A stretch of DNA of 64,000 nucleotides from an uncultured Candidatus Bathyarchaeia archaeon. GTDB taxonomy: Archaea > Thermoproteota > Bathyarchaeia > Bathyarchaeales > Bathyarchaeaceae. The notes beneath the pieces were generated by a model. That model searched no databases and had not been told where the DNA came from. It saw only the letters and a program-made list of their open reading frames with translations. Both the position numbers and the translations under genes were made by a program. Of this stretch, positions 4,972 to 57,268 are shown one piece after another; the first letter of the stretch is position 1, and each line of letters opens with the position of its first letter. The stretch spans positions 33,035 through 97,034 of the forward strand of contig CAZKWF010000001.1 in the NCBI GenBank assembly GCA_964556565.1. Reading direction: 5' to 3'.

Positions 4972-5054
4972 CTTCTCTTGTTTTGATTGCGATCTAACGA
5001 TTATATAAAACTAGTCTTGTGTAAGCGTGTTTTTGTCATGTTGTTTGCTTGTTT

Positions 5055-5097
5055 CTCTCTCTTTCTAAGCCTCCTATAACCCCCTATAATTTATTTT
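5055..5097 (-). promoter_or_regulatory. Conserved promoter/leader module copy (CT-tract, C-run, TATA-like box), facing the cupin gene
   Basis: Sequence ctctctctttctaagcctcctataaccccctataatttatttt. It lies 83 nt from the GTG at 4971 and belongs to the family with copies at 7876, 20243, 23499, 36173, 36229 and 56481. Confidence 0.55.
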
Positions 5098-7554: not shown

Positions 7555-7875
7555 CAAAGGCGCTGATTAACAGTCTTTTAACTTCAGAATACCCACTAAA
7601 ACCTTTAGCGTCACAGCTTACGTTGACCAAAACAACGCGGTTGTCGATAACAAGTCACCACCACAACCCAAACATTTTCTTCGTATTGCTCTACTGATAC
7701 CACGCAAGTGTAAGAATTGTGGTGCATTTAAATCTTCAATGATTCATACCTTCCACACCTCGGACAAACGAACAGGCAAAACAAGTTTTCATTCAACATG
7801 CATCACAATGACAAGTGCGGGTCTATGCCTTTCTCAACACATTACACACACGATTGGCAGTTAACAAGCTTTCCA

Positions 7876-7915
7876 GCAACCACCCCCCTAGGTAGGGGGG
7901 TCTAGAAAGAGAAAG
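7876..7915 (+). promoter_or_regulatory. Promoter/leader module copy, palindromic subtype (CCCCCCTAGGTAGGGGGG + TCTAGAAAGAGAAAG)
   Basis: Matches the reverse complement of 23499-23540 at 43 of 44 positions. It ends 101 nt before ATG 8017. Confidence 0.55.
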
Positions 7916-20242: not shown

Positions 20243-20276
20243 AAAAAAATATAGGGGGGGTCTATAAGAGAGAGAC
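20243..20276 (+). promoter_or_regulatory. Promoter/leader module copy (AAAAAAATATA, G7, TCTATAAGAGAGAGAC)
   Basis: Same architecture as the copies at 5055, 36173, 36229 and 56481. Followed by a G-poor leader, GCAAACAACCAAGCAAAAAACACACACAG... Confidence 0.6.
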
Positions 20277-21117: not shown

Positions 21118-23034
21118 GTGACAGCACTCGACAAAACAAAAGTAGAAATCAGTCAATCAATACTAGAACGTGTTCCTAAAGAGGCAGAAATCACACGAAT
21201 AGAATTCGAAGGTCCAGCTCTAGCCGTTTATACAAAAAAGCCAGAAGTTCTCATCGAGCAAAGTTACGTAATCGCAGACATCGTCAACCTGATCAGAAAA
21301 CGAATCGTTGTACGTTCTGACCCCTCGGTAAGACTGCCTGAGAAGGACACAGAAAAAATCATACAGAAAGTAGTTCCTCCAGAAGCACAAATTTCAGGAA
21401 TGAGTTTTGATCCCAGCCTAGGCGAGGTTATCATCGAAGCCGAAAAACCCGGCTTGGTCATTGGAAAAAACGGGGTTATCCTACAAGAGATCATAAAACA
21501 GTCACGATGGAGGCCCCGCGTTCTAAGGAGCCCTCCAATACCATCTAAAATCATGGCCCACATGCGACATTATCTCCACACTGAAAGCAAGGAACGAGAA
21601 AGAATACTCCGTACAGTGGGCGAAAGGATTTTCAGACCAACAGTTTACGGAGTCGGAGACATCCGAATCTCTGCGTTAGGTGGCTTTCAACAGGTGGGAA
21701 GGTCTGCCATCCTTGTACAAACAAGAGAAAGTCAAGTCCTACTGGATTGTGGCATAAACCCGGGCTCCTCGAATTCGCTCTTAATTTTCCCAAGACTCGA
21801 TGCACCTCAGTTTGATTTAGACACGTTAGACGCTGTTGTAATAAGTCATTCACATCTAGATCACTGCGGCTTCCTTCCATTTCTTTTTAAATATGGGTAT
21901 GATGGTCCGGTTTATTGTTCAGCCCCCACGTCAAATCTGATGACTTTGCTTCAATTAGATTATCTTGACGTAGCGAGTAAACAAGGGGTGATGCCGCCAT
22001 ACGATCAAAGAGATGTGCGGTCAACCGTGTTACACACCATCCCCCTGCGATACGGCGCCGTGACTGACATAGCCCCAGATGTTCGTTTAACCCTTCATAA
22101 CGCTGGACACATTTTGGGTTCATCGATCGTTCATTTGCATGTTGGAGAAGGTTTGCATAACATCGTCTACACTGGCGATTATAAATACGGGAAAACGATG
22201 CTTCTTGAACCTGCGGTCGCAGAGTTTCCCAGAGTAGAGACCATAATAACTGAAAGCACGTATGGAGCTCCGCAAGATGTAATGCCATCTAGAGTTGAAG
22301 TTGAAGAAAAACTTACGGCGGTCATAAATGGCACTTTAGATAGGAGAGGCAAAGTTTTAATCCCAGTTCCAGCTGTCGGCAGAGCTCAGGAGATTATGCT
22401 GGTCATTGATGGGTATATGCGCCGAGGACTGATGAGGGAAACGCCCGTGTTTATTGAGGGTATGATTTCTGAGGCTACTGCTATTCACACAGCTTATCCA
22501 GAGTATTTAGAAAGGGAAGTGCGAAACAGCATTTTGCATGAGGGAGTTAATCCGTTTCAATCGGATTATTTCACGATTGTGGAGCACCCCAGTGCCCGAG
22601 AAGAAATTGTGGATGGAGATCAATGTATTATCATAGCAACTTCTGGCATGCTTGAGGGTGGGCCGGTGATAGATTACTTTAAGCGTTTGGCATCAGATGA
22701 ACGCAATACGATAATTTTTGTGAGTTATCAAATTGAGGGGACACGAGGGAGTAGGGTGCAAAAGGGTTTGGCAGAAACGCCTATAATAAATAGTGAGGGA
22801 AAAATTGAAGTTATAAAATCGAATATGAAGGCTGAAACTATTAATGGGTTTTCTGGGCATTCTGATAGGAGGCAGATTATTAATTATATTCGCCGAGTTA
22901 TGCCGAAACCTGAGAGAATAATTGTGTGTCATGGTGAGAGCGCAAAATGTTTGGGTTTAGCGAACTTTTTGCGGAGAAGGTATAATGTTGAAACGTTAGT
23001 GCCAGAGGTTTTGGAGACTGTTAAGCTGCGGTAG
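21118..23034 (+). CDS. aCPSF1/FttA-type beta-CASP ribonuclease (2x KH + metallo-beta-lactamase + beta-CASP)
   Basis: 638 aa with a GTG start. N-terminal KH repeats, HSHLDHCG motif and a beta-CASP C-terminal region. Confidence 0.9.
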   Translation: MTALDKTKVEISQSILERVPKEAEITRIEFEGPALAVYTKKPEVLIEQSYVIADIVNLIRKRIVVRSDPSVRLPEKDTEKIIQKVVPPEAQISGMSFDPSLGEVIIEAEKPGLVIGKNGVILQEIIKQSRWRPRVLRSPPIPSKIMAHMRHYLHTESKERERILRTVGERIFRPTVYGVGDIRISALGGFQQVGRSAILVQTRESQVLLDCGINPGSSNSLLIFPRLDAPQFDLDTLDAVVISHSHLDHCGFLPFLFKYGYDGPVYCSAPTSNLMTLLQLDYLDVASKQGVMPPYDQRDVRSTVLHTIPLRYGAVTDIAPDVRLTLHNAGHILGSSIVHLHVGEGLHNIVYTGDYKYGKTMLLEPAVAEFPRVETIITESTYGAPQDVMPSRVEVEEKLTAVINGTLDRRGKVLIPVPAVGRAQEIMLVIDGYMRRGLMRETPVFIEGMISEATAIHTAYPEYLEREVRNSILHEGVNPFQSDYFTIVEHPSAREEIVDGDQCIIIATSGMLEGGPVIDYFKRLASDERNTIIFVSYQIEGTRGSRVQKGLAETPIINSEGKIEVIKSNMKAETINGFSGHSDRRQIINYIRRVMPKPERIIVCHGESAKCLGLANFLRRRYNVETLVPEVLETVKLR

Positions 23035-23498: not shown

Positions 23499-23540
23499 AT
23501 CTCTCTCTTTCTAGACCCCCCTACCTAGGGGGGTGGTTGC
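23499..23540 (-). promoter_or_regulatory. Promoter/leader module copy, palindromic subtype
   Basis: atctctctctttctagacccccctacctaggggggtggttgc. The CT-tract lies 99 nt from the sepF start. Confidence 0.55.
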
Positions 23541-23704
23541 TTTATCAGATTTGCTTTTGTGTCTCGGTCCTCTCTCTAAGCGTTGTGGATGTTCTGTCTA
23601 GGTAGTGATTCACGTGAGATTCGCATTATAATGTGGGCTTTTGCGATGTGGAATGCTAGTTCAGTGATAACGTGTAGTCTGCGATCTGAAGAGTTTGTGG
23701 AGTT

Positions 23705-24160
23705 TTAGGCTTGTTGTTCTCCGAAAATGAACTCGCAGTGTTCGTCTCCTTTTCCAGCGCATTTTTCTTCGGTTACGATTATTGTTTTCTTCAAGAGTTC
23801 TGAGAGAAAACCTGCTATGAAGCCTCTGAAGAAGTGGCAACTTGGCTGATTTGTTTTACGAGTCATTGCCTCAAACGAGTCGTCTATTATGATTCGTCCG
23901 GACCCGTTTTTGAAGTCAACTTTTTGGAAAGACATTTTTCCCCAGTTCTCTTTCTTTTTTAACGAGGAGAGATAGTTGAGTGCCTCTTCTTTTTTGTTAA
24001 ATTCTTTTTTCTTTTTTTGGTGTAAATGTACGCCGCATTTTATTGCTGCTGTATATAGTATCACTGAAGCTGCAGAAGGAGAGAAAATCAGTTCTAGAGC
24101 ATTTTCCATTTGGCCGAACGTTTCGAACTGAAATGTGAAGCTTCCTTCTCTTGCTTTCAA
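23705..24160 (-). CDS. V4R-domain protein
   Basis: 151 aa. C-terminal CHFFRGFIAGFLSELL...EEKCAGKGDEHCEF is typical of V4R domains. Confidence 0.7.
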   Translation of the reverse strand: MKAREGSFTFQFETFGQMENALELIFSPSAASVILYTAAIKCGVHLHQKKKKEFNKKEEALNYLSSLKKKENWGKMSFQKVDFKNGSGRIIIDDSFEAMTRKTNQPSCHFFRGFIAGFLSELLKKTIIVTEEKCAGKGDEHCEFIFGEQQA

Positions 24161-24417
24161 ATTACATGTTCACCTTTGCGTTTGCCAATCTGAGGTTATG
24201 ATTAATGCTATATACGTATATAATTTTCGAGAATAAACAAGATTGCTTGATTCTGAATTCGATTTTGTCTTATGCGTTTAGGTATTGACGGAATAACTGT
24301 GAAATCCTTATCCTGACCATCAGCTGAACTGCTTTCTAGCTTCTGATGATTTTCATCTATTGAATTCTTCTTGAAAGCAAAAATTTTTTAATTTCAGTTT
24401 AGACTAAGCAAGTTGCT

Positions 24418-29749: not shown

Positions 29750-30865
29750 ATGCAAATAGAATATTTCAAAGATTTGCCTTTGAGTTCAGAAGTTATGAAA
29801 GGCATTGAGGAGCTTGGATTCAGTAATCTTTTCCCAATTCAAGCTCAAGCGATAATACCATTACTTGAAGGAAAAGATGTCATTGGACAGGCAAAGACCG
29901 GAACAGGAAAGACTGCGGCTTTCGGAATACCGATGATTGAACGACTAGACCCGAAAATCAACAGTGTTCAAGGTTTAGTCTTGGAGCCTACACGCGAGCT
30001 TGCTATACAGGTTGCAGAACACATAAGTCGACTCAACAAATATGCACCATTCAAGGTTTTGCCAATTTACGGAGGAGAATCTATTCGGAAACAGATATAC
30101 GCATTGGAAAGAGGGGTCCACATTGTTGTGGGCACGCCGGGTCGCATGATAGATCATTTGAAACGAGGAACATTGAATCTGGCGTCAGTGAAAATTGTTG
30201 TTCTTGATGAGGCTGATAGAATGCTGGATATGGGGTTCATAGATGATATAGAATACATACTTTCAAAGGTGCCGGTGAACAGGCAGACAAGTCTTTTCTC
30301 GGCAACAATAGACAAGTCTGTAATGAATGTGTGCAATAGATACATGAGGAACCCTGAAAAAATACTTGTAAGCAAAGACGAAATAGCCCTTACACAGATA
30401 GACCAGTATTACATGGTTGTAAACCCTAAAGGCAAATTCAGAATCCTATGTGACATATTAGACGAAAATCACATAGAACGGGCTATAATATTCTGCAGAA
30501 CACGCATAGGCACAAGCACACTAGCAGACAAATTGAGGGAAAGAGGCTACGACGCAAGACCTTTGCATGCAGGCTTCACACAAGCGCAAAGAGACTTTGT
30601 TCTTAATTCCTTCAGAGACAGAAAGCTGAAGTTGCTTGTTGCAACGGATGTAGCTGCAAGAGGCTTGGACATTCAAGGAATAACCCATATAATAAACTAT
30701 GACATCCCATTAGACGCATTAGTGTACTTTCACAGGATTGGGCGGACAGCTAGAGTGGGACGCCCGGGAACAGCGATTACGCTTGTAGGCTACGGAGAAA
30801 TACCTGAACTTAACCAGATAAAATCTTTGACGAAAACTACTATTGACGAGTTGGAGCATAGCTAG
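29750..30865 (+). CDS. DEAD-box RNA helicase
   Basis: Q motif, AKTGTGKT, DEAD, SAT and HRIGRTAR. I prefer ATG 29750 (after AGGAG) to the track's GTG at 29729. Confidence 0.9.
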   Translation: MQIEYFKDLPLSSEVMKGIEELGFSNLFPIQAQAIIPLLEGKDVIGQAKTGTGKTAAFGIPMIERLDPKINSVQGLVLEPTRELAIQVAEHISRLNKYAPFKVLPIYGGESIRKQIYALERGVHIVVGTPGRMIDHLKRGTLNLASVKIVVLDEADRMLDMGFIDDIEYILSKVPVNRQTSLFSATIDKSVMNVCNRYMRNPEKILVSKDEIALTQIDQYYMVVNPKGKFRILCDILDENHIERAIIFCRTRIGTSTLADKLRERGYDARPLHAGFTQAQRDFVLNSFRDRKLKLLVATDVAARGLDIQGITHIINYDIPLDALVYFHRIGRTARVGRPGTAITLVGYGEIPELNQIKSLTKTTIDELEHS

Positions 30866-31033: not shown

Positions 31034-32317
31034 ATGCGATTGCCGATCATCTCTAGGCTGAAGCAAGAATTCTCGTTCATTCAAGGAAACTATGCTATTC
31101 TTGTGTTAAGCTGGATCATCATGGATTTCGCTATGGAACTGCCAGGCACATACTACTCGCTTTACGTTATCGATCCTGCGTTAGGGGGCACAGAGACAAT
31201 CCTTGGCGTCATAGGGTTTGCTTCTTTCTTAGCCTTAGCTCTGGTTCAGTTTCCTGGGGGTTACTTGGCGGACAGACATGGAAGAAAATGGTTGATTTCA
31301 ACAATGACTTTCGGAGTAGCGCTGTCATACATTTTTTATGCTTTAGCTCCCAGTTGGCATTCGATCTTGGTTGGAGCTATGATTGGAAACTTATGCCTAA
31401 TCTATCAGCCAGCTCTCTTGGCCATGGTCGCAGATTCGCTTCCGTCTGAGAAAAGGGGCATGGGTTTCTCGATCATCACCCTTATTACCCGTGTTGCGAC
31501 GACTCCTGCTCCTGCAGTGGCCGCTTTTCTGGTAACCTTTTACGAGTTTGTCCCTGGTATGAGAATATGTTATTTTATTCTGGTGGCTCTTTTCTTGACT
31601 GCAGCTACTTTGAGGTCACGATTGCGAGAAACTGTGGGAGAGGGTGGGAGTATAGATCGTCGAGAGTTCGTGAGCTCTTATCCTAGAGCTATAAGAGAGG
31701 GTGTGGCTGTTTGGAGGAAGGTGCCTCGTTCAATGATCTATCTTTTCTTGTCCAATCTGGTAGGAACACTCGGTTTTGCTGTAGGTATGCTTCTTTTCAA
31801 TGTCTATGCGGTGGACACTTATGATGCGTACGGGAACATCGTGCACGCATCTGTGTTACATATTTCAACTGTTGACTGGGCGATATTAGGGATGTTCCTT
31901 TTTGTGACAATGATAATATTCGCCATTCCCGTTGGCAAACTTGTTGATAAGGTGGGAAGAAAGATTCCGATACTATTAGGGCTAGGGCTCCTTGCGCCTT
32001 CCAGTTTGCTCTTTGTCTATGGAGATTTACCAAAGCTGTATATTTGTATGCCATTATTTGGTCTAGCACAAATACTACTGATGGTTGGATTTTCAGCTCT
32101 GCAAGCTGACTTGGTTCCTAAAGAGCAGCGAGGAAAAATCATTGGGTCTTCGAACTTCGTTAACTACATCATAATGGCGCTGGGTACGTTAGCTGGGGGT
32201 TTCATCTATGAACATGTCTCTCCTCAACTTCCGTTTCTTATTCCGGTAGTGTTTGTTGTTCCCGAGATTTTGATAATTCTGTTCTTAGTTCATGAACCTG
32301 AGAAGAGAGAAGAATAA
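31034..32317 (+). CDS. MFS transporter
   Basis: 427 aa, about 12 TM helices, with GGYLADRHGRK loop motif. Paralog of 61784-63028. Confidence 0.85.
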   Translation: MRLPIISRLKQEFSFIQGNYAILVLSWIIMDFAMELPGTYYSLYVIDPALGGTETILGVIGFASFLALALVQFPGGYLADRHGRKWLISTMTFGVALSYIFYALAPSWHSILVGAMIGNLCLIYQPALLAMVADSLPSEKRGMGFSIITLITRVATTPAPAVAAFLVTFYEFVPGMRICYFILVALFLTAATLRSRLRETVGEGGSIDRREFVSSYPRAIREGVAVWRKVPRSMIYLFLSNLVGTLGFAVGMLLFNVYAVDTYDAYGNIVHASVLHISTVDWAILGMFLFVTMIIFAIPVGKLVDKVGRKIPILLGLGLLAPSSLLFVYGDLPKLYICMPLFGLAQILLMVGFSALQADLVPKEQRGKIIGSSNFVNYIIMALGTLAGGFIYEHVSPQLPFLIPVVFVVPEILIILFLVHEPEKREE

Positions 32318-32377
32318 GACGAGTGTGGGTTAACCGATTTCTTGATAGAAGCGTCACTTTGTTTCAATAATGTTGTT

Positions 32378-32920
32378 CTAGTATTCGATTCCTTTTCTGC
32401 CGAGTGTGCCTTGGGCATAAGGATGCTTGACTTCTCTCATTTCAGTAACGAGGTCAGCTGCATCAATGATTTCAGAAGGAGCGTAACGACCGGTTAGAAC
32501 CAATTCTACGTGTTTAGGCTTGTTTTCAATTAGTTCAACCACTTCATTAGTCTTTATCATTTTTAGGTTCAGAGCTACGTTGATCTCATCCAAAATGACG
32601 ATGTCGTATTCACCGCTGTTAACGATTTCCTTGGCAAACTTCAAGGCTTCATTGGCTCGTTTGACATCTTCTACGAGTGGAGGGTCTTCCGTAATGTATC
32701 TGCCTTGGCCGAAAGCCTTCAGTTTGAAGTCTGGAAGTTGCTCGATAATGTGAAGTTCGCCATGTTTGAAGTCGCCGCCTTTGATGAACTGGATCATATG
32801 AACCTTGAAACCCCATCCGATGGCGCGTAATGCTAATCCGAGAGCGGCTGATGTCTTGCCCTTTCCATCTCCTGTATAGACCTGCGTTAGTCCTTTTTCT
32901 AATCGTTGTTTCGTCATCAC
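32378..32920 (-). CDS. cobO: Cob(I)alamin adenosyltransferase (CobO/BtuR type)
   Basis: 180 aa. VYTGDGKGKTSAALGLALRA P-loop, with ILDEINVAL. Confidence 0.85.
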   Translation of the reverse strand: MMTKQRLEKGLTQVYTGDGKGKTSAALGLALRAIGWGFKVHMIQFIKGGDFKHGELHIIEQLPDFKLKAFGQGRYITEDPPLVEDVKRANEALKFAKEIVNSGEYDIVILDEINVALNLKMIKTNEVVELIENKPKHVELVLTGRYAPSEIIDAADLVTEMREVKHPYAQGTLGRKGIEY

Positions 32921-32935
32921 GGTTTCTCCATTACC

Positions 32936-33901
32936 TTACCGGTGTCTTTTGAATCCTTTCAGCCTCTCTTCAAGTAATGTATCTGCAGCTGAATATGGAT
33001 CTGTTTTCTTTGCAAAAATTTTCTCAACGAGTTTTTCTAATTCGCCCTTGCGCTTCAGCTCGTCTATGATAGAATCAGTTGTCTTTTGCTTGATTGCTTC
33101 GACCAGTTCTGTTTCAGCTTTTTGTCTGCGCTGTGTGTCAAAGCCTTCTTTTTTCAGATATTTCATGTGCTGGTTTATGTGGTTGAGAAGCTCTGTGGTT
33201 CCTTCGCCTTTCGCGGCTGTTGTCTTGATGACTGGTGGCTTCCATTTTTCCTTCTCTGAACTCATATTCAACATTGTTTCTATGTCAATCACAGCCTCAT
33301 CTGCGTTCTCGCGGTCAGCCTTGTTCACTACGAAAATGTCTCCTATTTCCATCATGCCTGCTTTGATGGCTTGTATGTCATCGCCTAATCCTGGAGCCAG
33401 CACAACAACTACGGTGTGAGCGACTTTTATGATGTCAACTTCGGATTGTCCGGCTCCAACGGTTTCAACTATGACCGCGTCTTTGCCCGAAGCGTCTAAC
33501 ACTTTAACTGCGTCTTTTGTAGCCCTCGCTAGTCCGCCAGGACTGTTTCTTGTTGCCATGCTTCGGATGAAAACTTCTTCGTCTGTGCTGAGTTTCTGCA
33601 TGCGTATGCGGTCTCCGAGGAATGCGCCTCCTGTGAAGGGGCTGCTTGGGTCTACGGCTATTATGCCTACGCGTTTTCGTTTTTTTCGTAGTTCTTCGAC
33701 TAGTCTTTTTATTAATGTGCTTTTTCCTGAGCCTGTGGGTCCGGTTATGCCTATTATGTGTGCTTTGCCTGTGTGTGGGTAGAGTTTGGATACGGCTTTT
33801 TGGGCTTCTGTTGGGTTGTTTTCGATGAGGGTGATGGTTTTGGCTATGGATCTTTGGTTGCCTTTGAGTACGCCGTTGACGAGTTGTTTGGTTTGGTTCA
33901 A
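32936..33901 (-). CDS. meaB: MeaB/ArgK-type G-protein chaperone of methylmalonyl-CoA mutase
   Basis: 321 aa. GITGPTGSGKSTL, ETVGAGQSE and VVNKADR motifs. Confidence 0.9.
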   Translation of the reverse strand: MNQTKQLVNGVLKGNQRSIAKTITLIENNPTEAQKAVSKLYPHTGKAHIIGITGPTGSGKSTLIKRLVEELRKKRKRVGIIAVDPSSPFTGGAFLGDRIRMQKLSTDEEVFIRSMATRNSPGGLARATKDAVKVLDASGKDAVIVETVGAGQSEVDIIKVAHTVVVVLAPGLGDDIQAIKAGMMEIGDIFVVNKADRENADEAVIDIETMLNMSSEKEKWKPPVIKTTAAKGEGTTELLNHINQHMKYLKKEGFDTQRRQKAETELVEAIKQKTTDSIIDELKRKGELEKLVEKIFAKKTDPYSAADTLLEERLKGFKRHR

Positions 33902-33932
33902 TGTTGGTCCCGTGTTTTTGAGAGTCGGTGGA

Positions 33933-34340
33933 CTATTTTCTTTCTTGTGTGTGCTTTTTGATGTACCCTATGATTGTGTTTGTGGGGGTGTCTGGTCCGA
34001 ATACTTCGGCTATGCCGATTTTCTTTAATGCGGGGATATCTTCATCTGGGATGACTCCTCCTCCGAGTACTAGGATGTCGTTTAGTCCTTTTTGTTTCAT
34101 TAGTTCTGTTATTTTTGGGAAGAGTGTCATGTGGGCGCCTGATAGTATGCTCAGGGCGACTACGTCTACGTCTTCTTGTAAAGCGGTTTCTACGATTTGT
34201 TCGGGTGTTTGCCATAGCCCTGTGTAGATGACTTCCATGCCGGCGTCTCTGAACGCTCTTGCGATGACTTTGGCTCCTCTGTCGTGGCTGTCAAGTCCTG
34301 GTTTTGCGACTACGATTCTGATTTTTCTTTTTGTGCTCAT
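33933..34340 (-). CDS. Methylmalonyl-CoA mutase, B12-binding subunit
   Basis: 135 aa. [15 protein letters not shown] (the DxHxxG cobalamin motif) and a GGGVIP tail. Confidence 0.9.
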
Positions 34341-34359
34341 TTTTTCGGTTCGCCCTCCT

Positions 34360-36075
34360 TTAAATTATGATTTGTTCTTTATATTGTCCGTAGACATTGC
34401 GGAGGACGTCGCAGATTTCTCCAAGCGTAGCATAAGCCTTTACGGCTTCTATTATTGTGGGCATCAGGTTTTCGTCATGTTCAGCGGCCTTGTGGAGCTT
34501 ATCAAGCATGTCTTTTGGTTTTTTGTTGTTTCGTTTCTTTTTCAGCCTTTCTAGTCCGTCTACTTGTTCTTTTTCTGCTTGCTGCTCTATTCTCAACAGT
34601 TTTATGGGTATCCATTCTTTCTCTACCGTGTATTCGTTGACTCCGACTATGGTTCTTTGTTCGTTTTCTATCTCTTTTTGATATTTGTAAGCGCTATCAG
34701 CGATTTCTTTTTGGAAGAATCCTTTTTCTATTCCAGCGATTACTCCGCCCATTGAATCTATTTTGTTAATGTATTCCATCGCGTGTTCTTCCATTTCGTT
34801 TGTTAAGGCTTCTAGGCAGTATGATCCTGCGAGTGGGTCTATGGTGTCTGTTACTCCGGTTTCGTGGGCGATTATTTGTTGAGTTCGTAGAGCTACTCTG
34901 ACTGCCTCTTCAGACGGTAGAGCTAGTGCCTCGTCAAATGAGTTGGTGTGTAGTGATTGTGTGCCTCCTAGTACTGATGCTAAGGATTGGAATGCGACTC
35001 GTATGACGTTGTTGATTGGTTGCGTTGCGGTTAGTGTGCATCCTGATGTTTGGATGTGCATTCTCATCCATTGTGATCGTGGTTTTTTGGCTTTGAATCG
35101 TTCTTTCATGATCTTAGCCCATAGTCTTCGTGCTGCTCTGAATTTGGCTATTTCTTCTAGGAAGTTGTTGTGGGCTGCGAAGAAGAATGATAGTCTGGGT
35201 GCGAATTGGTCGACTTTTAGTCCTCGTTCGAGTGCGGATTCTACGTAGGTGATTCCGTCTGCTAGTGTGAAGGCGAGTTCTTGTACGGCGTTTGAGCCTG
35301 CTTCTCGGATGTGGTATCCGCTGATGCTTATGGGGTTCCATTTAGGCAAATGTTTCGCACAGTATTCTGTGATGTCTGTGACGAGTTTGACTGAGGGTTT
35401 TGGTGGGAATATGCATAGTTTTTGTGCGTGGAATTCTTTTAGGTTGTCGTTTTGGGTTGTTCCTCCGAGTTTTTTTCTGGGTACTCCTTGCATATCCCCT
35501 ATTGCGATGTACATTGCTAGTAGCATGGTTGCTGGTCCGTTTATGGTCATGGATGTGGTTACTTTGTTTAAGGGTATTCCGTTGAATAGAACCTCCATGT
35601 CTTGTAATGAAGATACTGCTACGCCGCATTTGCCTACTTCGCCTTGTGACAGTGGGTGGTCTGAGTCTAGGCCTAGTATGGTTGGGTAGTCGAATGCGAT
35701 GCTTAGTCCTGTCTCGCCTTCTTTCAGTAGGTATTTGAATCGTTTGTTTGTTTGTTGGGCTGTTCCGTATCCTGAGAATTGTCTCATGGTCCATAGGCGT
35801 CCTCTGTACATGGTTGCGTGTAGGCCTCTTGTGAATGGGGGTTCTCCTGGGAAGCCTAGGTCTCGTGTGTAGTCTACGTTTTTGTTGTCTTCTGGTGTGT
35901 ATAATCGTTTGATGTGTATGTTTGATGAAGTGTGAAAATCATTTTTTCTTTCAGGGTGTCTGCTTATCCATTCTGGAACTGTTTTTGTTTTCCAGTTTTT
36001 TCTTTTTTTCTGGACTTCGCTGAGTTTGTGTTCGTCAAACACTTGTTTCTTGCCTCCGTCAATTTTAGTAATCAT
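34360..36075 (-). CDS. Methylmalonyl-CoA mutase, catalytic (substrate-binding) subunit
   Basis: 571 aa. [24 protein letters not shown] and IAFDYPT match the mutase TIM-barrel signatures. Confidence 0.9.
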
Positions 36076-36172
36076 ATTATTGTTCGTCCTAAAAAGTTGT
36101 TTCTGCTTGATTCTTCTTGTTTATGGGTGTTCTGTTTTGTATTTGTGTTTGGGTTTTTCACATTCTTTTATT

Positions 36173-36210
36173 CTCTCTCTTTTATAGACCCCCCTATAGC
36201 CCCCCCTAAT
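36173..36210 (-). promoter_or_regulatory. Promoter/leader module copy (proximal of a tandem pair)
   Basis: ctctctcttttatagacccccctatagccccccctaat. The CT-tract lies 97 nt from the mutase ATG (36075). Confidence 0.6.
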
Positions 36211-36228
36211 TCTTTGTAGCTCCTTATG

Positions 36229-36260
36229 TCTCTCTCTAGACCCCCTACCTAATTTTTTTT
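36229..36260 (-). promoter_or_regulatory. Promoter/leader module copy (distal of the tandem pair)
   Basis: tctctctctagaccccctacctaatttttttt. Confidence 0.5.
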
Positions 36261-36313
36261 GATAAGCTTGAAGTGAGCTTCTTTTTGTGAACAGCGCTTG
36301 AATATTGCTCAAG

Positions 36314-36360: not shown

Positions 36361-36936
36361 GCCAGGTTGCTGGAGTGAATGTCGTAAGTAAGGTGCAGTT
36401 GTATGTAGACCTTTTTAATTACCCAGCCTGTGGAGAGGAAGCCGCTGAGATGATACTTAGGGTTCTAGAGAAGGAGTGGGCCATCCAAGAAAGCTAGAGG
36501 CAATTCAAAATTTTCGCTTGAGTTTAAATAGTTTCGCTATTAACGAAAACGCTACCATATGAAATGCACACGTTTCCTTTTGTCTTAGATTTTCTTCTTA
36601 ACGAAACTGTAAGGCAATCCGACAGAAGATGCACTATCGCTATCGGATATTTTTCTCGGGAAATACGTACGCATGAACGACAGATCAGGGTATAAAACAT
36701 GGAGAAACTCGTATGTCTTGTAGAGAGGAAAAGTTGGCCTGACCAAGCCTAGAGTCTGCCATGGGCATGGAGAGATTATTGCGCTATTCTATTTGGAGCA
36801 TATTTGGCGAGGTATGTTGAAAACAACCGCTTTTTAATGGAGATGTGCTTCGCATGCTTGCTTTTCGTGTGGGTTTGGTTTTCGAAAATGATTTAAGGTT
36901 TGCTGCGTATGTTTGTTTGAGTCTGGTGATTTAGAA

Positions 36937-37179
36937 ATGGAGCCTGTTGTTGCTATGCTTTCAAGGTATGAGGAAAATGCGAAATGGCTTAGTAGTCACT
37001 ATGAGGAGTTGAAGAAGAGGTTTAAGGACGAGTGGATTGGGGTTCTGAACGAAACTGTTGTTGATCATGACCGCGAGTTGGGTAGGCTTGTTAAAAGGTT
37101 GCGTAAGAAGTATTCAGAGGCTTACAATGAGATTGCAGTGGAGTACGTCACTGCTAAAGAGATAGAGCTGATACTCTGA
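36937..37179 (+). CDS. DUF5678-like small protein (antitoxin-like partner)
   Basis: 80 aa from ATG 36937 (track TTG 36913). Pattern ...YEELKKRFKDEWIGVLNETVVDHDRELGRLVKRLRKKY. Confidence 0.55.
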   Translation: MEPVVAMLSRYEENAKWLSSHYEELKKRFKDEWIGVLNETVVDHDRELGRLVKRLRKKYSEAYNEIAVEYVTAKEIELIL

Positions 37180-37192
37180 AAAAGGGGATTTT

Positions 37193-37636
37193 TTGAGGAT
37201 TCCCTGCTTTTTTAAGCCTGGAATTTTTGAAGCGGCTTATGTTGTTGCCGTCTTAGAATCTAATGCTCTGGGTATGTGTGAGACAATTGAGTTTTTGGTT
37301 GATACTGGGGCTTCGAGGACAACGATCTGCGATAAGGATGCGATTAGATTAGGCATAGATTTTGGCAAGTTGGAGAAGCTTGGCGAGGGCATGCTTGGAA
37401 TAGGCGGAGTGGTTGACACCTATGTTTTGAAGGATGTTAAACTCGTTTTCCGCAGGGAAGACGAGAAAGGTCATGTGCAAAATTTTGAAAGAATTTACGT
37501 TTTGAAGCATGCTGCCTTAGACGAGAGAATTATGAGGATTCCAAGCATTCTCGGAAGAGACATACTAAACAAGTACGCGCTTATTTACGATAAAAGACAT
37601 GAAAAGGCATACATAACGGATGAAACGCTTACCTAA
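37193..37636 (+). CDS. Retropepsin-like (clan AA) aspartic protease
   Basis: 147 aa. Catalytic FLVDTGASRTTI (D-T-G-A) and C-terminal ILGRDIL. Starts 13 nt after the upstream gene. Confidence 0.7.
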   Translation: MRIPCFFKPGIFEAAYVVAVLESNALGMCETIEFLVDTGASRTTICDKDAIRLGIDFGKLEKLGEGMLGIGGVVDTYVLKDVKLVFRREDEKGHVQNFERIYVLKHAALDERIMRIPSILGRDILNKYALIYDKRHEKAYITDETLT

Positions 37637-38040: not shown

Positions 38041-38244
38041 TTACGTTTTCTTAATGAATTCGATTAGTGCAATTATGATGCCAGCTAACGCTACTAGTCC
38101 GCCTAGAATTTCCATAGCTGTCCAGAAGTTCATGTCGCCTCTTGTGATGAAGGCTATTAGGCAATTCCTTTGAGAAGCGTAAAAACCCAAAATTGTGCCG
38201 ACAATGAAAAGAGCTAAACCGAAGAGAATCAAGCTTTTCCTCAT
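38041..38244 (-). CDS. 67-aa two-TM membrane protein (copy 1)
   Basis: Its C-terminal 44 aa are identical to those of the 44575-44778 product. Confidence 0.6.
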   Translation of the reverse strand: MRKSLILFGLALFIVGTILGFYASQRNCLIAFITRGDMNFWTAMEILGGLVALAGIIIALIEFIKKT

Positions 38245-38307
38245 AAATCATCCCAACAAATCATACATCTAATTTAATGCATAGGCAAAGTCTTCTTTTG
38301 AGTTTGG
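38041..38307. repeat. Direct repeat, left copy (pairs with 44575-44840)
   Basis: By hand alignment the first 120 nt have 3 mismatches (97.5%) and the next 84 nt have 16 mismatches (81%). Similarity continues about 60 nt beyond the start codon. Confidence 0.85.
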
Positions 38308-39351: not shown

Positions 39352-41652
39352 TTAAAACGAGGTAAGTTTTGTGGACTCGTAGCCTCTAACTGAATTGTAA
39401 ATGTCCTTTGCGGAATAGCCAAATGGGCTCAAAAGGTTGGAAGCCGCTGAATAGAGGAGAAGAAGGTATTTTTTAATATCTGAACTCATGTTTCCCTCAA
39501 TCAATTCTTCCGCTTTGACCCTTCGTTCGTACCGTTTGTTTTTTGCACTCGTAAAGAGAAATCTAACACTCTTCCCAGCGGAAACCTCTACGCCTTCCTT
39601 CAAAAGTTGTTCGGCTGCAATCACTTGGCTGACTTTCTGCTTATAGCTTTCCAGATTCTTAGAAAGACGCTTAGTAACGATCAAGTCCCAGATAGACACT
39701 TCTCCATCTATCAATCTCTTTCTACATTCCCTAACTACGTTCAAAGCGTCGGGTATTTTCTCAATGAAGACCTTAGAATCACCAGCAGTAGCCAACACTC
39801 TGATCATTTCCATCTGCGCATCATACACGAATTTTGGCGTATCCCTTCTTCTAATCTCTATGCCCCTAACTTTAATTCTCCCATCTTCCTTAACACCGTA
39901 ATAGCGATTCAACACGGCAACGTTAGGGTGCATCTTAGAAGGAAGGAAAACAATCCACTTGTAGCGGCCTTCAAAATTTAGAGGTACTCCAATTTTTGCA
40001 CTTACCTCTCTACATAGGCTGATGTATTCCTGTGTTGTGGCGTCTACCTTCTTGAGCCACAGTGAATCAACGATTCCATGAATTATGCTGAATCCTCTTC
40101 TCTCAGCAATATGAGCGGTCTCCAGAAATGCTTGTCTGCCGAAAGCACAAACACCAATATGGCCGTCAACAGTGCCAAATTTAGCGTTTCTATATCCAAG
40201 GTAGCCGAAGCACGTTACTAGAATCCATTTCAAGGCATCTTGACGTCTTTCATAAACTTCTTTTAACCTCTCATCTTTAGCTTCTCTCTTCAACCTCTTA
40301 TAACGCAACCTTTTTGCAACCGCGAACCTCAAAGTCTTGGGCACGATTCCAATACGTTTCTCGCAGATGTTGTATCCAAGCTCAGGGATACGCAATGGCG
40401 AATCTGGACAACACTTGCAAAGAACAGTTTCAGCTGATATGTTGTTTTTGACCATCAAGGAAGGATACATTGACGAGAAATCTACTTCGCCAACCCAATT
40501 GTGAATGCCCATCCTGGGCTCATAGATAAAGCCTCCGCGGTCTCCAACTAATAGCTCATAGGCAGATTTGAAAGCTTCTGGAATACGTTTATTCCTAGGG
40601 ATCAAAACGTCATCCTTTATTGCTTGGTAGAACTGGAGAGACGACATGCTTGAGCCTATTGAAGATCGTGAAGCTCGATGTAGAGGCACTCTGCAGGTTC
40701 TGGCGATTTCGATAAGTCCTTCAATTCCACACTCGTTGAGAATGAACGTGTTGTTTTCGTCGATGTGAACTCTACCATAAAGTCTCCTCATAGGAGCCCG
40801 ATAGTATGTTCTGCCGTAAGAAAAGAAAGTTGTTCCACGTTTCCGCTTGGCAACAAGAGGTATGTTCGCTCTACTCAGAACAAACCTGTCTAAAACACCG
40901 TTAACCAGCGCCCTTCTTGCAAGATAAGGAAGTACATGCGAGTCACCACCGCTAGTCAACAAAATATCTGGATCAAGTTTCTTAGCAACTTCAACAAACT
41001 GCAGTAGTTTATCTTTCTCGTCACCAGAGTCAAGGATTATTTTCTCGCCATCTTGAAAAACAACTATATCCTCCAATGGGTCATCAAGGTTTGCTATCTT
41101 CCCTTTCTTAGCAATATCAACATGGATTCTCATGATACGCAAAGGCGGAATCTGATAATCAACACTTTCCACAGAGTCTAAAAGCCGATATCTCAACCCA
41201 TGCTTTTCAACCTCGATTTCAACAAAAGCAAGTGGAAAAATATCACGGTCATAAAGATAGGCTTGAGTGCTCCGCAGATCACAGTTGTGCACTTGATAAC
41301 GTAAATATCCACCGATTTCTAGGATTTCACGCACAAAGAATGGAATCCTTCTGCAATCTTTCAATGTAACCTCTAAAACCTTTGACTTTTCAGTATCAAT
41401 TGGATTAGCATATTTGTGAACGAAACTGCATGAGATTATTGATCTGTTAGCAAAGAATCGAGTTGAAAGTCTCTCTATATCTTCTTCTTTGCCGGAAATG
41501 TAGATTTTCGGTTTAAACTCATCTATCAAACGGATTCTTTCGCCATCCTCAGTGATAATCCAAATGCTCATCTGGCCAAATGCTGAAGGATAGAGGTCGA
41601 AAACCCAACCTTTCACATGCTTAAGGTTGACTGCATTACTTTCTGATTGCAT
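39352..41652 (-). CDS. Family-B DNA polymerase, PolB2-like, with degenerate exonuclease motifs and altered motif C
   Basis: 766 aa. Motif A DFSSMYPS is intact. Motif B reads KWILVTCFGYLG. Motif C reads HGIVDS instead of YxDTDS. ExoI reads HVDIA (E lost) and ExoII reads GGDSHVLPYL (FD lost). Confidence 0.85.
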   Translation of the reverse strand: MQSESNAVNLKHVKGWVFDLYPSAFGQMSIWIITEDGERIRLIDEFKPKIYISGKEEDIERLSTRFFANRSIISCSFVHKYANPIDTEKSKVLEVTLKDCRRIPFFVREILEIGGYLRYQVHNCDLRSTQAYLYDRDIFPLAFVEIEVEKHGLRYRLLDSVESVDYQIPPLRIMRIHVDIAKKGKIANLDDPLEDIVVFQDGEKIILDSGDEKDKLLQFVEVAKKLDPDILLTSGGDSHVLPYLARRALVNGVLDRFVLSRANIPLVAKRKRGTTFFSYGRTYYRAPMRRLYGRVHIDENNTFILNECGIEGLIEIARTCRVPLHRASRSSIGSSMSSLQFYQAIKDDVLIPRNKRIPEAFKSAYELLVGDRGGFIYEPRMGIHNWVGEVDFSSMYPSLMVKNNISAETVLCKCCPDSPLRIPELGYNICEKRIGIVPKTLRFAVAKRLRYKRLKREAKDERLKEVYERRQDALKWILVTCFGYLGYRNAKFGTVDGHIGVCAFGRQAFLETAHIAERRGFSIIHGIVDSLWLKKVDATTQEYISLCREVSAKIGVPLNFEGRYKWIVFLPSKMHPNVAVLNRYYGVKEDGRIKVRGIEIRRRDTPKFVYDAQMEMIRVLATAGDSKVFIEKIPDALNVVRECRKRLIDGEVSIWDLIVTKRLSKNLESYKQKVSQVIAAEQLLKEGVEVSAGKSVRFLFTSAKNKRYERRVKAEELIEGNMSSDIKKYLLLLYSAASNLLSPFGYSAKDIYNSVRGYESTKLTSF

Positions 41653-44574: not shown

Positions 44575-44778
44575 TTATGTTTTCTTAATGAATTCGATTA
44601 GTGCAATTATGATGCCAGCTAACGCTACTAGTCCGCCTAGAATTTCCATGGCTGTCCAGAAGTTCATGTCGCCTCTTGTGATGAAAGCTATTAGACAGTT
44701 CCTCTGAGAAGCAGAAAAACCCAAAGCTGCGCCAACAACAAAAAGAACCAAACCGAACAGAATCAAGCTTCTCCTCAC
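44575..44778 (-). CDS. 67-aa two-TM membrane protein (copy 2, GTG start)
   Basis: Paralog of 38041-38244. Confidence 0.6.
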   Translation of the reverse strand: MRRSLILFGLVLFVVGAALGFSASQRNCLIAFITRGDMNFWTAMEILGGLVALAGIIIALIEFIKKT

Positions 44779-44840
44779 AAGTCAACCCAACAAATCAACA
44801 TCTAGGATAATGCAAAGGCAAAATATTCTTTTAAACTTTG
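44575..44840. repeat. Direct repeat, right copy (pairs with 38041-38307)
   Basis: See the left copy. Same orientation, 6534 bp apart. Confidence 0.85.
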
Positions 44841-56480: not shown

Positions 56481-56510
56481 TATCTCTCTTTAGGCCCCCT
56501 ATAATTTTTT
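56481..56510 (-). promoter_or_regulatory. Promoter/leader module copy
   Basis: tatctctctttaggccccctataatttttt. The CT-tract lies 99 nt from the eS30 ATG. Followed directly by ATGCAT. Confidence 0.6.
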
Positions 56511-57150: not shown

Positions 57151-57258
57151 GTTATCACCCCCTTATCCCTTCTAACAACCTAACAGACTCTTTCAACCCA
57201 TACTAAACATTTGAGGAACTAACTTCTATAACATACATGCACAATGTAAAATTCCTTA

Positions 57259-57268
57259 ATGCATGCAT
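57259..57268. repeat. ATGCATGCAT palindrome
   Basis: Exact 10-mer, 109 nt upstream of the 57150 start. Confidence 0.7.

What the first reader, a model, noticed from the sequence alone, without database searches (positions are those of the whole stretch)
33600..36172. Kb-scale keto/amino strand-composition gradients emanating from the conserved promoter modules
Downstream of each module, in the direction of transcription, the RNA-like strand is A+C-rich and the template strand G+T-rich. The effect is strongest near the module and decays over 0.4-2.5 kb. My hand counts on the plus strand, per 60 nt, follow. For the mutase operon (minus-strand genes), G+T is 73% at 35881-35940 (T28 G16 A12 C4) and 80% at 33781-33840 (T26 G22 A7 C5). 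It falls to 58% at 32401-32460. For fen (plus-strand gene), A+C is 72% at both 8461-8520 and 8581-8640, with G only 5 of 60 at the latter. Similar zones follow the modules at 5055 (leftwards to about 4100), 20243 (rightwards to about 21600) and 56481 (leftwards to about 55500). The skew generates many spurious low-complexity ORFs in the track, R/T/K/P/N-rich in alternative sense frames and L/F/V/C-rich on the antisense strand. An RNA made mostly of A and C cannot base-pair with itself. One hypothesis is therefore selection for unstructured or R-loop-averse transcripts. The alternative is template-strand C-to-U and A-to-I deamination bias. I do not know of a description of this pattern.
Basis: partly seen in the sequence, partly recalled or inferred. 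Interest (0 to 1): 0.7.

Follow-up and report, generated by a model that had tools for sequence, protein, structure and literature searches.

The report
Promoter-repeat-anchored strand composition gradients in Bathyarchaeia
In this uncultured archaeon, the 0.2-2.8 kb of DNA downstream of each copy of a repeated promoter-like element has become A+C-rich on one strand, whichever way the resident genes point, so the cause is an undescribed direction-dependent bias in how DNA changes rather than codon choice.

Summary
All five hand counts match exactly. The skew is mainly a third-codon-position effect. A+C at third positions is 0.84-0.88 in the mutase genes against about 0.50 in most genes, while G+C there is unchanged, so T has been replaced by C and G by A.

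The window is Bathyarchaeia. A MAG 92% identical to it (CSMAG_2176) carries at least 54 copies of the same module. Across 43 module clusters, A+C on the module-oriented strand jumps from 0.51 to 0.68. It returns to baseline by about 1.8 kb, with no mirror image upstream.

The skew follows module orientation, not gene orientation. Pfam-confirmed genes lying antisense just downstream of a module are G+T-rich on their own coding strand: uS12 has third-position A+C of 0.09, FtsZ 0.27, and the 3' end of FttA in the window 0.25. This excludes codon selection. Replication skew does not fit the scale or orientation.

Synonymous transition divergence is lower inside the zones, which excludes simple one-way hypermutation. 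My best reading (0.4) is a transcription-coupled strand-asymmetric mutation or repair bias. Selection for A+C-rich RNA (0.3) is not excluded. I found no published description.

The parts
33540..36172 (-). Strong skew zone: leader plus the first 2.6 kb of the methylmalonyl-CoA mutase operon. The minus strand is A+C-rich.
   Evidence: Third-position A+C is 0.72-1.00 in 40-codon bins from 36075 down to about 33540, apart from 0.60 in the last bin of the mutase gene (about 34515-34400), then drops to 0.55-0.70. The change point lies 2630 nt from the module.
32378..33539 (-). Weak tail of the same zone (3' part of MeaB and the CobA gene).
   Evidence: Third-position A+C is mostly 0.55-0.71, with one bin at 0.47, still above the roughly 0.50 baseline.
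36173..36265 (-). Three tandem module units (cores at 36245, 36205 and 36193), preceded by an A-run. Putative promoter cassette.
   Evidence: Consensus across at least 54 copies in the sister MAG: aaaaaaattaTAGGGGGGTCTAaAGAGAGAGAcacacgcaaataacgtaacaaaca.
34360..36075 (-). Methylmalonyl-CoA mutase large subunit gene.
   Evidence: PF01642 annotation. Third-position A+C 0.84.
33933..34340 (-). B12-binding small subunit gene.
   Evidence: PF02310. Third-position A+C 0.88.
32936..33901 (-). MeaB GTPase gene. The skew steps down inside this gene.
   Evidence: PF03308. Third-position A+C is 0.97, 1.00 and 0.88 in the first three bins, then 0.70-0.55.
32378..32920 (-). Corrinoid adenosyltransferase gene (CobA/BtuR).
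   Evidence: PF02572. Third-position A+C 0.62.
7875..7914 (+). Module with a palindromic C-run/G-run. It heads the GNAT-FEN1 zone, which runs to about 9300.
   Evidence: (I1). Third-position A+C in FEN1 is 0.85-0.95 for the first 120 codons, then 0.75 falling to 0.50-0.65. Pfam XPG_N/XPG_I.
20243..20275 (+). Module heading the zone over the proteasome beta gene and the 5' part of FttA (to about 21600).
   Evidence: Third-position A+C is 0.93, then 0.88, then 0.82, falling to 0.65. Pfam Proteasome and KH_TffA/Beta-Casp.
23501..23541 (-). Module heading the SepF zone, which continues leftwards into the 3' end of the convergent FttA gene.
   Evidence: (I1). SepF third-position A+C 0.85. Plus-strand third-position G+T rises smoothly through 0.54, 0.57, 0.63, 0.73 and 0.90 across the gene boundary.
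21118..23034 (+). FttA/aCPSF1 gene. Its 5' end lies in the plus-oriented zone and its 3' end in the minus-oriented zone.
   Evidence: Sense third-position A+C falls from 0.75 to 0.25-0.33 along one gene. Pfam.
56482..56510 (-). Module upstream of ribosomal protein S30e (56199-56384, minus strand). The zone continues about 940 nt, into the amidohydrolase gene.
   Evidence: PF04758 Ribosomal_S30, E=1.8e-11. Amidohydrolase third-position A+C is 0.80 for about 160 codons, then 0.25-0.35 at the 3' end.
5052..5095 (-). Variant module (GGGGGTTATAGGAGGCTTAGAAAGAGAGAGA) upstream of a cupin gene that carries an in-frame stop.
   Evidence: Third-position G+T on the plus strand is 0.72-0.79 at 4501-5100.

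Best explanation
The module is a multi-copy promoter cassette that probably spreads. It has TATA-like boxes, a G-run and a conserved CA-rich leader. Whatever DNA lies in the first 0.2-2.8 kb downstream of it accumulates T-to-C and G-to-A replacements on the strand reading 5' to 3' away from the module (call it X), which means A-to-G and C-to-T on the complementary strand (Y). This happens regardless of which strand encodes the resident genes.

I think the most likely cause is a transcription-coupled, strand-asymmetric mutation or repair process that is a neutral or mildly harmful by-product of module activity. In this model the non-template strand X is repeatedly re-copied or corrected from the template strand Y. 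Deamination or misincorporation on Y therefore becomes fixed, while damage on X is erased. The effect falls off as fewer polymerases, or shorter repair tracts, reach further from the start site.

Shown: anchoring to the module; dependence on module orientation; independence from gene orientation; a synonymous transition signature with G+C unchanged; maintenance of the skew in three lineages that are 89-92% identical.

Inferred: that the module is an active promoter; that the bias is mechanistic rather than selected; and the strand re-copying step itself.
For: Anchoring. Across 43 module clusters (the window plus MAG CSMAG_2176), A+C on the module strand runs 0.51, then 0.68, 0.65, 0.62, 0.60, and back to 0.51 by about 1.8 kb. 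Upstream it is only 0.53-0.56. Chance matches of the same pattern in bacteria show 0.49.

Blind to coding strand. Third-position A+C on the module strand is 0.75-0.83 in co-oriented genes and 0.81-0.88 in opposite genes within the first 500 nt. X-strand third-position composition is nearly identical in the two classes: A .455 C .333 G .106 T .106 against A .437 C .364 G .055 T .143. Ten opposite genes are Pfam-confirmed. Integrated skew is the same for the two classes, 129 against 137, p=0.86.

All site classes shift the same way. Codon positions 1 and 2 shift by +0.06-0.09, and non-coding sequence reaches 0.60-0.69. G+C at third positions does not change.

Codon selection looks weak in the few translation and transcription genes sampled. 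L30e, NusA, RpoA2, aIF5A and uL16, none of them inside a strong skew zone, have third-position A+C of 0.41-0.54. A selection coefficient of about 2.5-3 on every synonymous site of antisense RNAs therefore seems unlikely.

No motif-level signal. T-runs occur no less often than composition predicts in synonymous-codon shuffles.

Orthologues track the module. Mutase third-position A+C is 0.84 in the window and 0.85 in the MAG, both with modules. It is 0.68 in L002 and 0.55 in L004, which lack one.

Promoter-like placement. In 17 of 25 co-oriented cases the start codon lies 69-200 nt after the module. One module precedes r-protein S30e.
Against: The polarity is opposite to every transcription-associated mutational asymmetry I know of, in which non-template-strand deamination gives a G+T-rich coding strand (own knowledge; the same point appears in PMC12999951).

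The zones do not diverge faster. Synonymous transitions between the window and the MAG drop from about 0.148 (C/T) and 0.122 (A/G) at baseline to 0.086 and 0.049 in the strongest bins. Effective forward rates are up 2.3-5 fold and reverse rates down about 4 fold. That is exactly what selection would produce as well, so the mechanistic model needs an ad hoc 'strand refresh' step.

Non-coding sites are less skewed than third positions beyond 250 nt from the module: about 0.49-0.61 against 0.62-0.83 out to 1.5 kb.

There is no transcript or start-site data, so promoter activity is inferred only. In L003 the mutase zone starts at the native start region without a recognisable module.
Confidence: 0.4

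Rival explanations
1. Selection on the RNA made from the module. Abundant module-driven transcripts are selected to contain few G and U. This would keep them unstructured, prevent pairing with one another, help translation, or help them resist U-dependent termination or decay. The gradient would then follow RNA abundance.
For: The substitution pattern fits a fixation bias of S about 2-3 with an unchanged mutation rate. Predicted folding energy of X-strand RNA is -16.0 kcal/mol per 100 nt, against -23.5 for control genes and -25.6 for Y-strand RNA. The leaders are CA-rich, and most modules sit 69-200 nt upstream of a co-oriented start codon. There is a precedent for composition selected against premature termination: purine bias and Rho in Bacilli (PMC13323073).
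Against: It would need selection on antisense RNAs strong enough to force 73-91% G/T at third positions of uS12, FtsZ, ELP3 and PhoU. Yet the translation and transcription genes sampled outside strong zones show no codon bias at all. Skew is equally strong in co-oriented and opposite genes. T-runs are neither depleted on X nor selected on Y beyond what composition predicts. Opposite genes carry T5+ runs in their own sense strand at the chance rate.
Confidence: 0.3
2. A transcription-independent process anchored at the module. The module, which contains a C-run/G-run palindrome, would be nicked or bound in a strand-specific way. One-directional 5'-to-3' excision and resynthesis of strand X would start there, as in nick-directed mismatch correction or gap repair. 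Tract length would set the gradient.
For: The effect is one-sided, begins at the module and decays over 1-2 kb. It is independent of gene orientation. Forward rates are up and reverse rates down. Many copies contain the palindrome CCCCCCTAGGTAGGGGGG.
Against: In L003 the mutase zone begins at the gene's own start region with no recognisable module, which points to transcription as the anchor. No nickase or similar gene was identified. Module copies without the palindrome also show the skew.
Confidence: 0.12
3. Ordinary codon-usage bias: translational selection for A- and C-ending codons in highly expressed genes.
For: The effect is largest at third positions. NNC and NNA codons match GNN and UNN anticodons (own knowledge). 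S30e, SepF and the proteasome subunit are plausibly well expressed.
Against: The skew reverses within single genes: FttA 0.75 to 0.25, amidohydrolase 0.80 to 0.30. It is inverted in genes antisense to a module, with uS12 at 0.09. It affects leaders and codon positions 1 and 2. Other translation genes are unbiased.
Confidence: 0.02
4. Replication-associated skew (leading against lagging strand, or local origins), or a compositional artefact such as foreign DNA or assembly error.
For: The A+C against G+T transition signature is the same as that of replication and mitochondrial strand asymmetries (own knowledge).
Against: The domains are 0.2-2.8 kb, and six orientation switches occur within 64 kb. 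The sign is set by module orientation. The polarity is opposite to a strand displaced from an origin. Zone boundaries cut through conserved genes. The pattern recurs in independent assemblies from NCBI MAGs, JGI and Logan.
Confidence: 0.03

Closest known systems
Start-site-anchored strand asymmetries in mammalian genes (transcription-associated mutational asymmetry; Green et al. 2003, Polak and Arndt 2008; cited from own knowledge)
   Same: The compositional skew starts at the promoter, is oriented by the direction of transcription, is strongest near the 5' end, decays over 1-2 kb, and is made of complementary transitions.
   Different: There the coding strand becomes G+T-rich; here the module-oriented strand becomes A+C-rich. 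The magnitude here is far larger, up to 100% A/C at third positions. It overrides resident genes on the other strand and is tied to a repeated element.
Somatic hypermutation domain of immunoglobulin genes (own knowledge)
   Same: The domain is defined by the promoter, extends about 1.5-2 kb and decays with distance. It is independent of the sequence placed downstream. Patch resynthesis is biased to the non-transcribed strand.
   Different: Hypermutation raises the mutation rate enormously. Here divergence is not raised. No deaminase has been implicated, and the base changes differ.
Vertebrate mitochondrial strand asymmetry with a gradient in time spent single-stranded (own knowledge)
   Same: Nearly the same signature: one strand A+C-rich at third positions, with very low G and T, produced by C-to-T and A-to-G on the other strand, with a positional gradient.
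   Different: In mitochondria the strand displaced from the origin becomes G+T-rich. Here the strand running away from the anchor is A+C-rich. The scale is kilobase domains repeated many times per genome.
Purine bias of Bacilli genes as avoidance of Rho termination (PMC13323073)
   Same: A strand-composition 'code' that separates the sense strand from the antisense strand and constrains codon usage.
   Different: That bias follows gene orientation genome-wide and enriches A+G. Here the enrichment is A+C, it is local, it follows the module, and no terminator-motif signal was found.
Intergenic repeats that carry promoters, as in halovirus HF2 (PMC8707807, seen)
   Same: A multi-copy intergenic repeat containing TATA-like motifs, placed upstream of genes.
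   Different: As far as I know, no downstream compositional effect has been reported there (I saw only the title and abstract). Here the repeat also sits at the 3' ends of genes, pointing into them.

Membership tests
Transcription-associated strand asymmetry (start-site anchored) | The skew begins at the promoter or transcription start and is oriented with transcription. | tested here: inconclusive
   It begins at the module and follows module orientation in 43 clusters. The start site itself is not mapped.
Transcription-associated strand asymmetry (start-site anchored) | The coding (non-template) strand is enriched in G+T. | tested here: not met
   The module-oriented strand is enriched in A+C: third positions are A .455 C .333 G .106 T .106.
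Transcription-associated strand asymmetry (start-site anchored) | Decay over about 1-2 kb from the start. | tested here: met
   Return to baseline by about 1.8 kb. Change points lie at 150-2790 nt.
Translational codon-usage bias | The bias follows the coding strand and is shared by ribosomal protein genes. | tested here: not met
   uS12 has third-position A+C of 0.09 when antisense to a module. L30e is 0.46, uL16 0.52 and aIF5A 0.54.
Translational codon-usage bias | The bias is restricted to synonymous sites. | tested here: not met
   Leaders and non-coding sequence reach 0.60-0.69, and codon positions 1 and 2 shift by +0.06-0.09.
Replication strand skew | The sign switches only at origins and termini, with domains of 100 kb or more. 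| tested here: not met
   Six oriented zones of 0.5-2.9 kb lie within 64 kb.
Hypermutation domain (SHM-like or one-way mutator) | The substitution rate is elevated inside the domain. | tested here: not met
   Synonymous transitions in the strongest-skew bins are 0.4-0.6 times baseline, where a one-way mutator predicts about 2.4 times. Transversions are 1.7 times baseline.
Termination-avoidance composition code (Rho or FttA type) | Terminator motifs are depleted on the protected strand beyond what base composition predicts. | tested here: not met
   T5+ runs: 6 observed against 4.9 expected. T4+ runs: 36 against 22.8. Expectations come from synonymous-codon shuffles.
Archaeal promoter cassette / promoter-bearing repeat | A multi-copy element at a fixed short distance upstream of start codons. 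| tested here: met
   At least 54 copies in 36 loci of one MAG. In 17 of 25 co-oriented cases the start codon is 69-200 nt downstream. However, in roughly a fifth to a quarter of cases the module points into a convergent gene just beyond its stop codon: five of the 32 scored clusters are at 20-45 nt, and ten of all 43 at 20-64 nt.
Archaeal promoter cassette / promoter-bearing repeat | A BRE/TATA box about 25 nt upstream of a mapped transcription start. | not testable with these tools
   TATA-like strings are present (TCTATAAAAG; AAAAAATTATAG). No transcript data are available.

The most novel reading that the evidence does not exclude
Bathyarchaeia carry a spreading promoter cassette whose activity triggers an undescribed strand-specific DNA transaction, for example repeated resynthesis of the non-template strand from the template. 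Over evolutionary time this rewrites 0.2-2.8 kb downstream of each copy to as much as 100% A/C at synonymous sites on one strand. It overwrites the codon usage of essential genes on either strand. The polarity is opposite to all known transcription- or replication-associated asymmetries.
Probability: 0.35. Interest if true: 0.85.

Novelty: new variant of a known kind. Interest (0 to 1): 0.75.

Why it matters
If the bias is mechanistic, it points to an unknown transcription-linked DNA repair or resynthesis pathway in archaea. It would be a natural system in which a promoter leaves a heritable, directional mutational footprint.

If the bias is selected, it is the most extreme case I know of (third positions 90-100% A/C) in which RNA base composition is the direct target of selection, including for antisense RNAs.

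Either way there are practical consequences:
- The zones create long spurious ORFs and can flip gene-caller strand choices.
- They distort expression or horizontal-transfer inferences based on codon usage.
- They inject strong compositional heterogeneity into universal marker genes (uS12, FtsZ, S30e) that are used for archaeal phylogeny.
- They may also reveal a family of mobile promoters in a globally abundant, uncultured lineage.

Tried and rejected
- Codon or translational selection: rejected by the antisense genes and the within-gene reversals.
- Replication skew or local origins: rejected by scale, by the mix of orientations, and by polarity.
- Two-sided break with resection: rejected because there is no mirror-image skew upstream.
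- One-way hypermutation (AID-like, error-prone reverse transcription, or exposure only): rejected because synonymous transitions are fewer, not more, inside the zones.
- Oligo-T termination code: no motif signal beyond composition.
- Zone ends against T-runs: a T4+ run lies near the change point in some cases (the mutase zone, L026, L050, L057), but this could not be separated from composition effects.
- Number of tandem module units against zone strength: no correlation, rho 0.12, p=0.50.
- Polarised substitution counts with L002 as outgroup: the direction agrees, but the result is biased by the outgroup's weaker skew. Repeating with three close lineages under majority rule showed an excess of common-to-rare changes. 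That excess is probably a parsimony artefact, so equilibrium cannot be rejected.
- In-frame TAA in the cupin gene as a footprint of G-to-A pressure: rejected, because the MAG has GAA there, making it a G-to-T change.
- tRNA and Rfam scans of the window: nothing found.
- The window's own genome was not recovered in the genome collection; none of the fetched MAG stretches matched it exactly, and the best match is a MAG about 92% identical over the shared regions.
- Literature searches found no description of this pattern.
Full report
**1. The observation**

The window has 42.5% G+C. All five 60-nt hand counts in the finding are exact.

The interval covers an archaeal-type methylmalonyl-CoA mutase operon on the minus strand:
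- large subunit, 34360-36075
- B12-binding subunit, 33933-34340
- MeaB, 32936-33901
- CobA/BtuR, 32378-32920

The skew lies overwhelmingly at third codon positions. Third-position A+C is 0.84, 0.88, 0.75 and 0.62 in these four genes, against roughly 0.40-0.58 in most other genes. Third-position G+C stays at 0.42-0.46. In the mutase genes the third-position composition is A 0.51, C 0.32-0.38, G 0.09 and T 0.03-0.07. In a typical unskewed gene it is roughly A 0.30, C 0.19, G 0.22 and T 0.29. So T has been exchanged for C and G for A, which are two complementary transitions.

In 300-nt bins, plus-strand G+T at third positions is mostly 0.4-0.6 across the window. It reaches 0.75-0.99, or falls to 0.07-0.27, only in a few zones. 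The strongest zones all start at copies of a repeat: 7896(+), 20256(+), 23520(-), three tandem units at 36245-36193(-), 56499(-), and a variant near 5085(-). The mean A+C downstream of the six sites is 0.632, and none of 100000 random tile sets reached it.

**2. Where the window comes from, and more copies of the module**

The closest homologues of the mutase are from Bathyarchaeia.

A scan of one genome per species for the module pattern returned 60 stretches. Thirty-six came from a single MAG, Candidatus Bathyarchaeota archaeon CSMAG_2176. A few came from other Bathyarchaeia MAGs. About a dozen were chance hits in bacteria.

The CSMAG_2176 stretches hold at least 54 module matches, often as two or three tandem units. 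The consensus is about aaaaaaattaTAGGGGGGTCTAaAGAGAGAGAcacacgcaaataacgtaacaaaca. Many copies are preceded by a C-run that makes a palindrome with the G-run.

This MAG is about 92% identical to the window over four shared regions. It has modules at the same places, but the number of units differs.

**3. The anchored profile**

Over 43 module clusters, A+C on the module-oriented strand is about 0.51 far upstream and 0.53-0.56 in the last kilobase before the module. Downstream it runs 0.68, 0.65, 0.62, 0.60, 0.60, 0.565, 0.55 and 0.53 in successive 200-nt bins, and is back at 0.51 by about 1.8 kb.

There is no mirror-image skew upstream. Individual zones end 150-2790 nt from the module.

Genuine modules in other Bathyarchaeia MAGs have 0.60-0.77 in the first 300 nt. 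The bacterial chance matches have 0.49, which serves as a negative control.

**4. The skew follows the module, not the gene**

Within the window, the plus-strand FttA/aCPSF1 gene (21118-23034) starts in the zone of the plus-oriented module at 20256. It ends in the zone of the minus-oriented module at 23520. Its sense third-position A+C falls from 0.75 to 0.25 along the gene. The amidohydrolase gene downstream of the S30e module goes from 0.80 to about 0.30.

In the sister MAG, many modules sit 20-64 nt beyond the stop codon of a convergent gene and point into it. Those genes are G+T-rich on their own coding strand:
- uS12: third-position A+C 0.09
- a PhoU-domain protein: 0.10
- ELP3: 0.22
- FtsZ: 0.27
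- UDP-GlcNAc 2-epimerase: 0.27

All ten such genes that I tested are confirmed by Pfam.

On the module-oriented strand, third positions are A .455 C .333 G .106 T .106 in co-oriented genes and A .437 C .364 G .055 T .143 in opposite genes. Integrated skew does not differ between the two classes (p=0.86). Codon positions 1 and 2 shift by +0.06-0.09 in the same direction in both classes, and non-coding sequence shifts too.

Translation and transcription genes outside strong skew zones are unbiased. L30e is 0.46, NusA 0.41, RpoA2 0.50, aIF5A 0.54 and uL16 0.52.

Codon or translational selection is therefore excluded. Replication skew is excluded by scale, by the mix of orientations within 64 kb, and by polarity.

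**5. Orthologue comparison**

Third-position A+C of the mutase gene across relatives:
- window, with modules: 0.84
- sister MAG, with modules: 0.85
- L003 (JGI contig, 79% protein identity): 0.80
- L002 (CP070754, 86% protein identity), no module: 0.68
- L004 (82% protein identity), no module: 0.55

L003 has its own module variant, CCCCCCCTCTAGAGAGAGGTTCTCACACACGCACACACA. Two copies flank a thiolase operon, and third-position A+C along that operon runs 0.56, 0.42, 0.30 and 0.29 towards the copy that points into it. The L003 mutase zone, however, starts sharply at the gene's own start region, with only a decayed module-like string 170 nt upstream. In L002, SepF (third-position A+C 0.75) is preceded by a degenerate module that keeps the TATA-like core CTATAAGAAAGAGACACC.

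These cases suggest that the anchor is a transcription start, and that the module is a strong, portable version of one.

**6. Is the module a promoter?**

This is indirect. The evidence is:
- TATA-like strings inside or just before each unit.
- Start codons 69-200 nt downstream in 17 of 25 co-oriented cases.
- One copy upstream of ribosomal protein S30e.
- One copy about 95 nt upstream of a tRNA-like sequence in L044 (by eye only).

No transcript data were available. The reverse complement of the module ends in a T-run. It could therefore also act as a terminator for convergent genes.

**7. Mutation or selection?**

Between the window and the MAG, the skew is conserved gene by gene.

Synonymous transition differences fall as the skew rises. 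C/T differences are 0.137-0.159 per site at baseline and 0.086 in bins with third-position A+C above 0.9. A/G differences are 0.10-0.15 at baseline and 0.049 in those bins. Transversions rise from about 0.025 to 0.043.

A pure increase of T-to-C and G-to-A would predict about 2.4 times more transitions at equilibrium. That class of models (an AID-like deaminase, error-prone cDNA conversion, or simple single-strand exposure) is rejected. A pure suppression of the reverse changes would predict about 0.1-0.2 times baseline, which is also not seen.

The effective rates are forward up 2.3-5 fold and reverse down about 4 fold. This fits a fixation-type bias of S about 2.5-3. It fits equally well a repair process that both fixes changes arising on one strand and erases changes arising on the other.

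Polarised counts give the same direction, whether from a distant outgroup or from three close lineages at 89-92% identity. Both are affected by known parsimony biases and do not settle the question.

T-runs are no rarer than composition predicts on either strand. An oligo-U termination code is therefore not supported. RNA from the A+C-rich strand is predicted to be much less structured: -16.0 kcal/mol per 100 nt, against -23.5 for controls. This is a consequence of composition and does not prove selection.

**8. Judgement**

I favour a mechanistic bias coupled to transcription from the module (0.4), for three reasons:
- The effect ignores what is encoded.
- It overwrites essential genes on the opposite strand.
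- The few translation and transcription genes sampled outside strong zones show no codon bias, which suggests that selection on synonymous sites is weak in this organism.

The polarity requires the template strand to be the source of fixed changes and the non-template strand to be the one corrected or re-copied. That is the reverse of known transcription-associated asymmetries and would be new.

Selection on RNA composition (0.3) fits the substitution rates and the co-oriented majority of cases. It strains to explain the antisense cases. A transcription-independent nick-and-resynthesis process at the module (0.12) fits the one-sided decay but not the module-less zone in L003.

**9. Novelty**

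Searches for strand asymmetry in archaea, Bathyarchaeia codon usage or promoters, transcription-associated mutagenesis in archaea, and keto skew at transcription starts found no description of this pattern.

The nearest known phenomena are:
- start-site-anchored skews in mammalian genes, which have the opposite polarity and are much weaker;
- the promoter-defined hypermutation domain of antibody genes, where the mutation rate is raised, unlike here;
- mitochondrial strand asymmetry, which has the same base signature but a different geometry;
- the purine bias of Bacilli that avoids Rho (PMC13323073), which is oriented by genes rather than by a module.

I classify this as a new variant of a known kind.

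Noticed in passing
window 4729-4734 (minus strand), inside the cupin gene 4660-4971: There is an in-frame TAA stop in an otherwise intact cupin-domain gene. The sister MAG has GAA (Glu) at this codon, so the change is G-to-T. It is either a recent nonsense mutation or an assembly error.
   Followed up: yes
window 57961-58360, inside gene 57686-59524 (minus strand): Five or six tandem 66-69-nt repeats encode Asp-rich units. Pfam assigns them to bacterial TSP3 (thrombospondin type 3, calcium-binding) repeats, in a 612-aa protein whose N-terminus looks like a signal peptide. Local G+C is 51-54%, higher than the rest of the window.
   Followed up: partly
window 38041-38263 and 44575-44797: A 223-nt direct repeat, 91% identical, in two intergenic regions 6.5 kb apart. 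The copies flank the family-B DNA polymerase gene (39352-41652) and neighbouring genes. It is unrelated to the promoter module and its nature is unknown.
   Followed up: no
window 57243-57268, 59931-59956, 60324-60349; also 57576-57612 and 59916-59952: A recurring intergenic motif ends in the palindrome ATGCATGCAT. The same palindrome appears just downstream of modules in related MAGs (L030, L015, L050). It may be a regulator binding site.
   Followed up: no
window 56199-56384 (minus strand): A 61-codon gene for ribosomal protein S30e (Pfam E=1.8e-11) lies right after the module at 56499. It falls below the length cut-offs I used when listing ORFs (70-150 aa), so it was absent from those lists.
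   Followed up: yes
window 54600-55200, 30301-30600, 36900-37500 and 23700-24900: These are weaker skewed stretches (third-position keto fraction 0.29-0.32 or 0.62-0.76) with no recognisable module at their edge. Unrecognised start sites, or read-through from neighbouring units, may be responsible.
   Followed up: partly
L052 36-57 and L061 359-381 (Ignavibacteria MAG X2_MaxBin.003): Two contigs of a bacterial MAG share the module-like string TAGGGGGGTCTATAAAGAGAGA followed by an identical flank (AGTATCCGTTATTTC...). There is no downstream skew. It is a different repeat that happens to match the search pattern.
   Followed up: partly
L001 (window 32169-36199) and L065-L068: Logan contigs from five sequencing runs that carry this operon all break in the module or leader region upstream of the mutase gene. 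Four of them break at the same base, 48 nt before the start codon. This is the behaviour expected of a multi-copy repeat in short-read assembly.
   Followed up: partly
L044, about 95 nt downstream of its module (minus orientation): A tRNA-like 5' end (GGGCCGGTAGTTCAGTTTGG) with its own TATA-like box follows the module. I did not run a tRNA scan on this locus.
   Followed up: no
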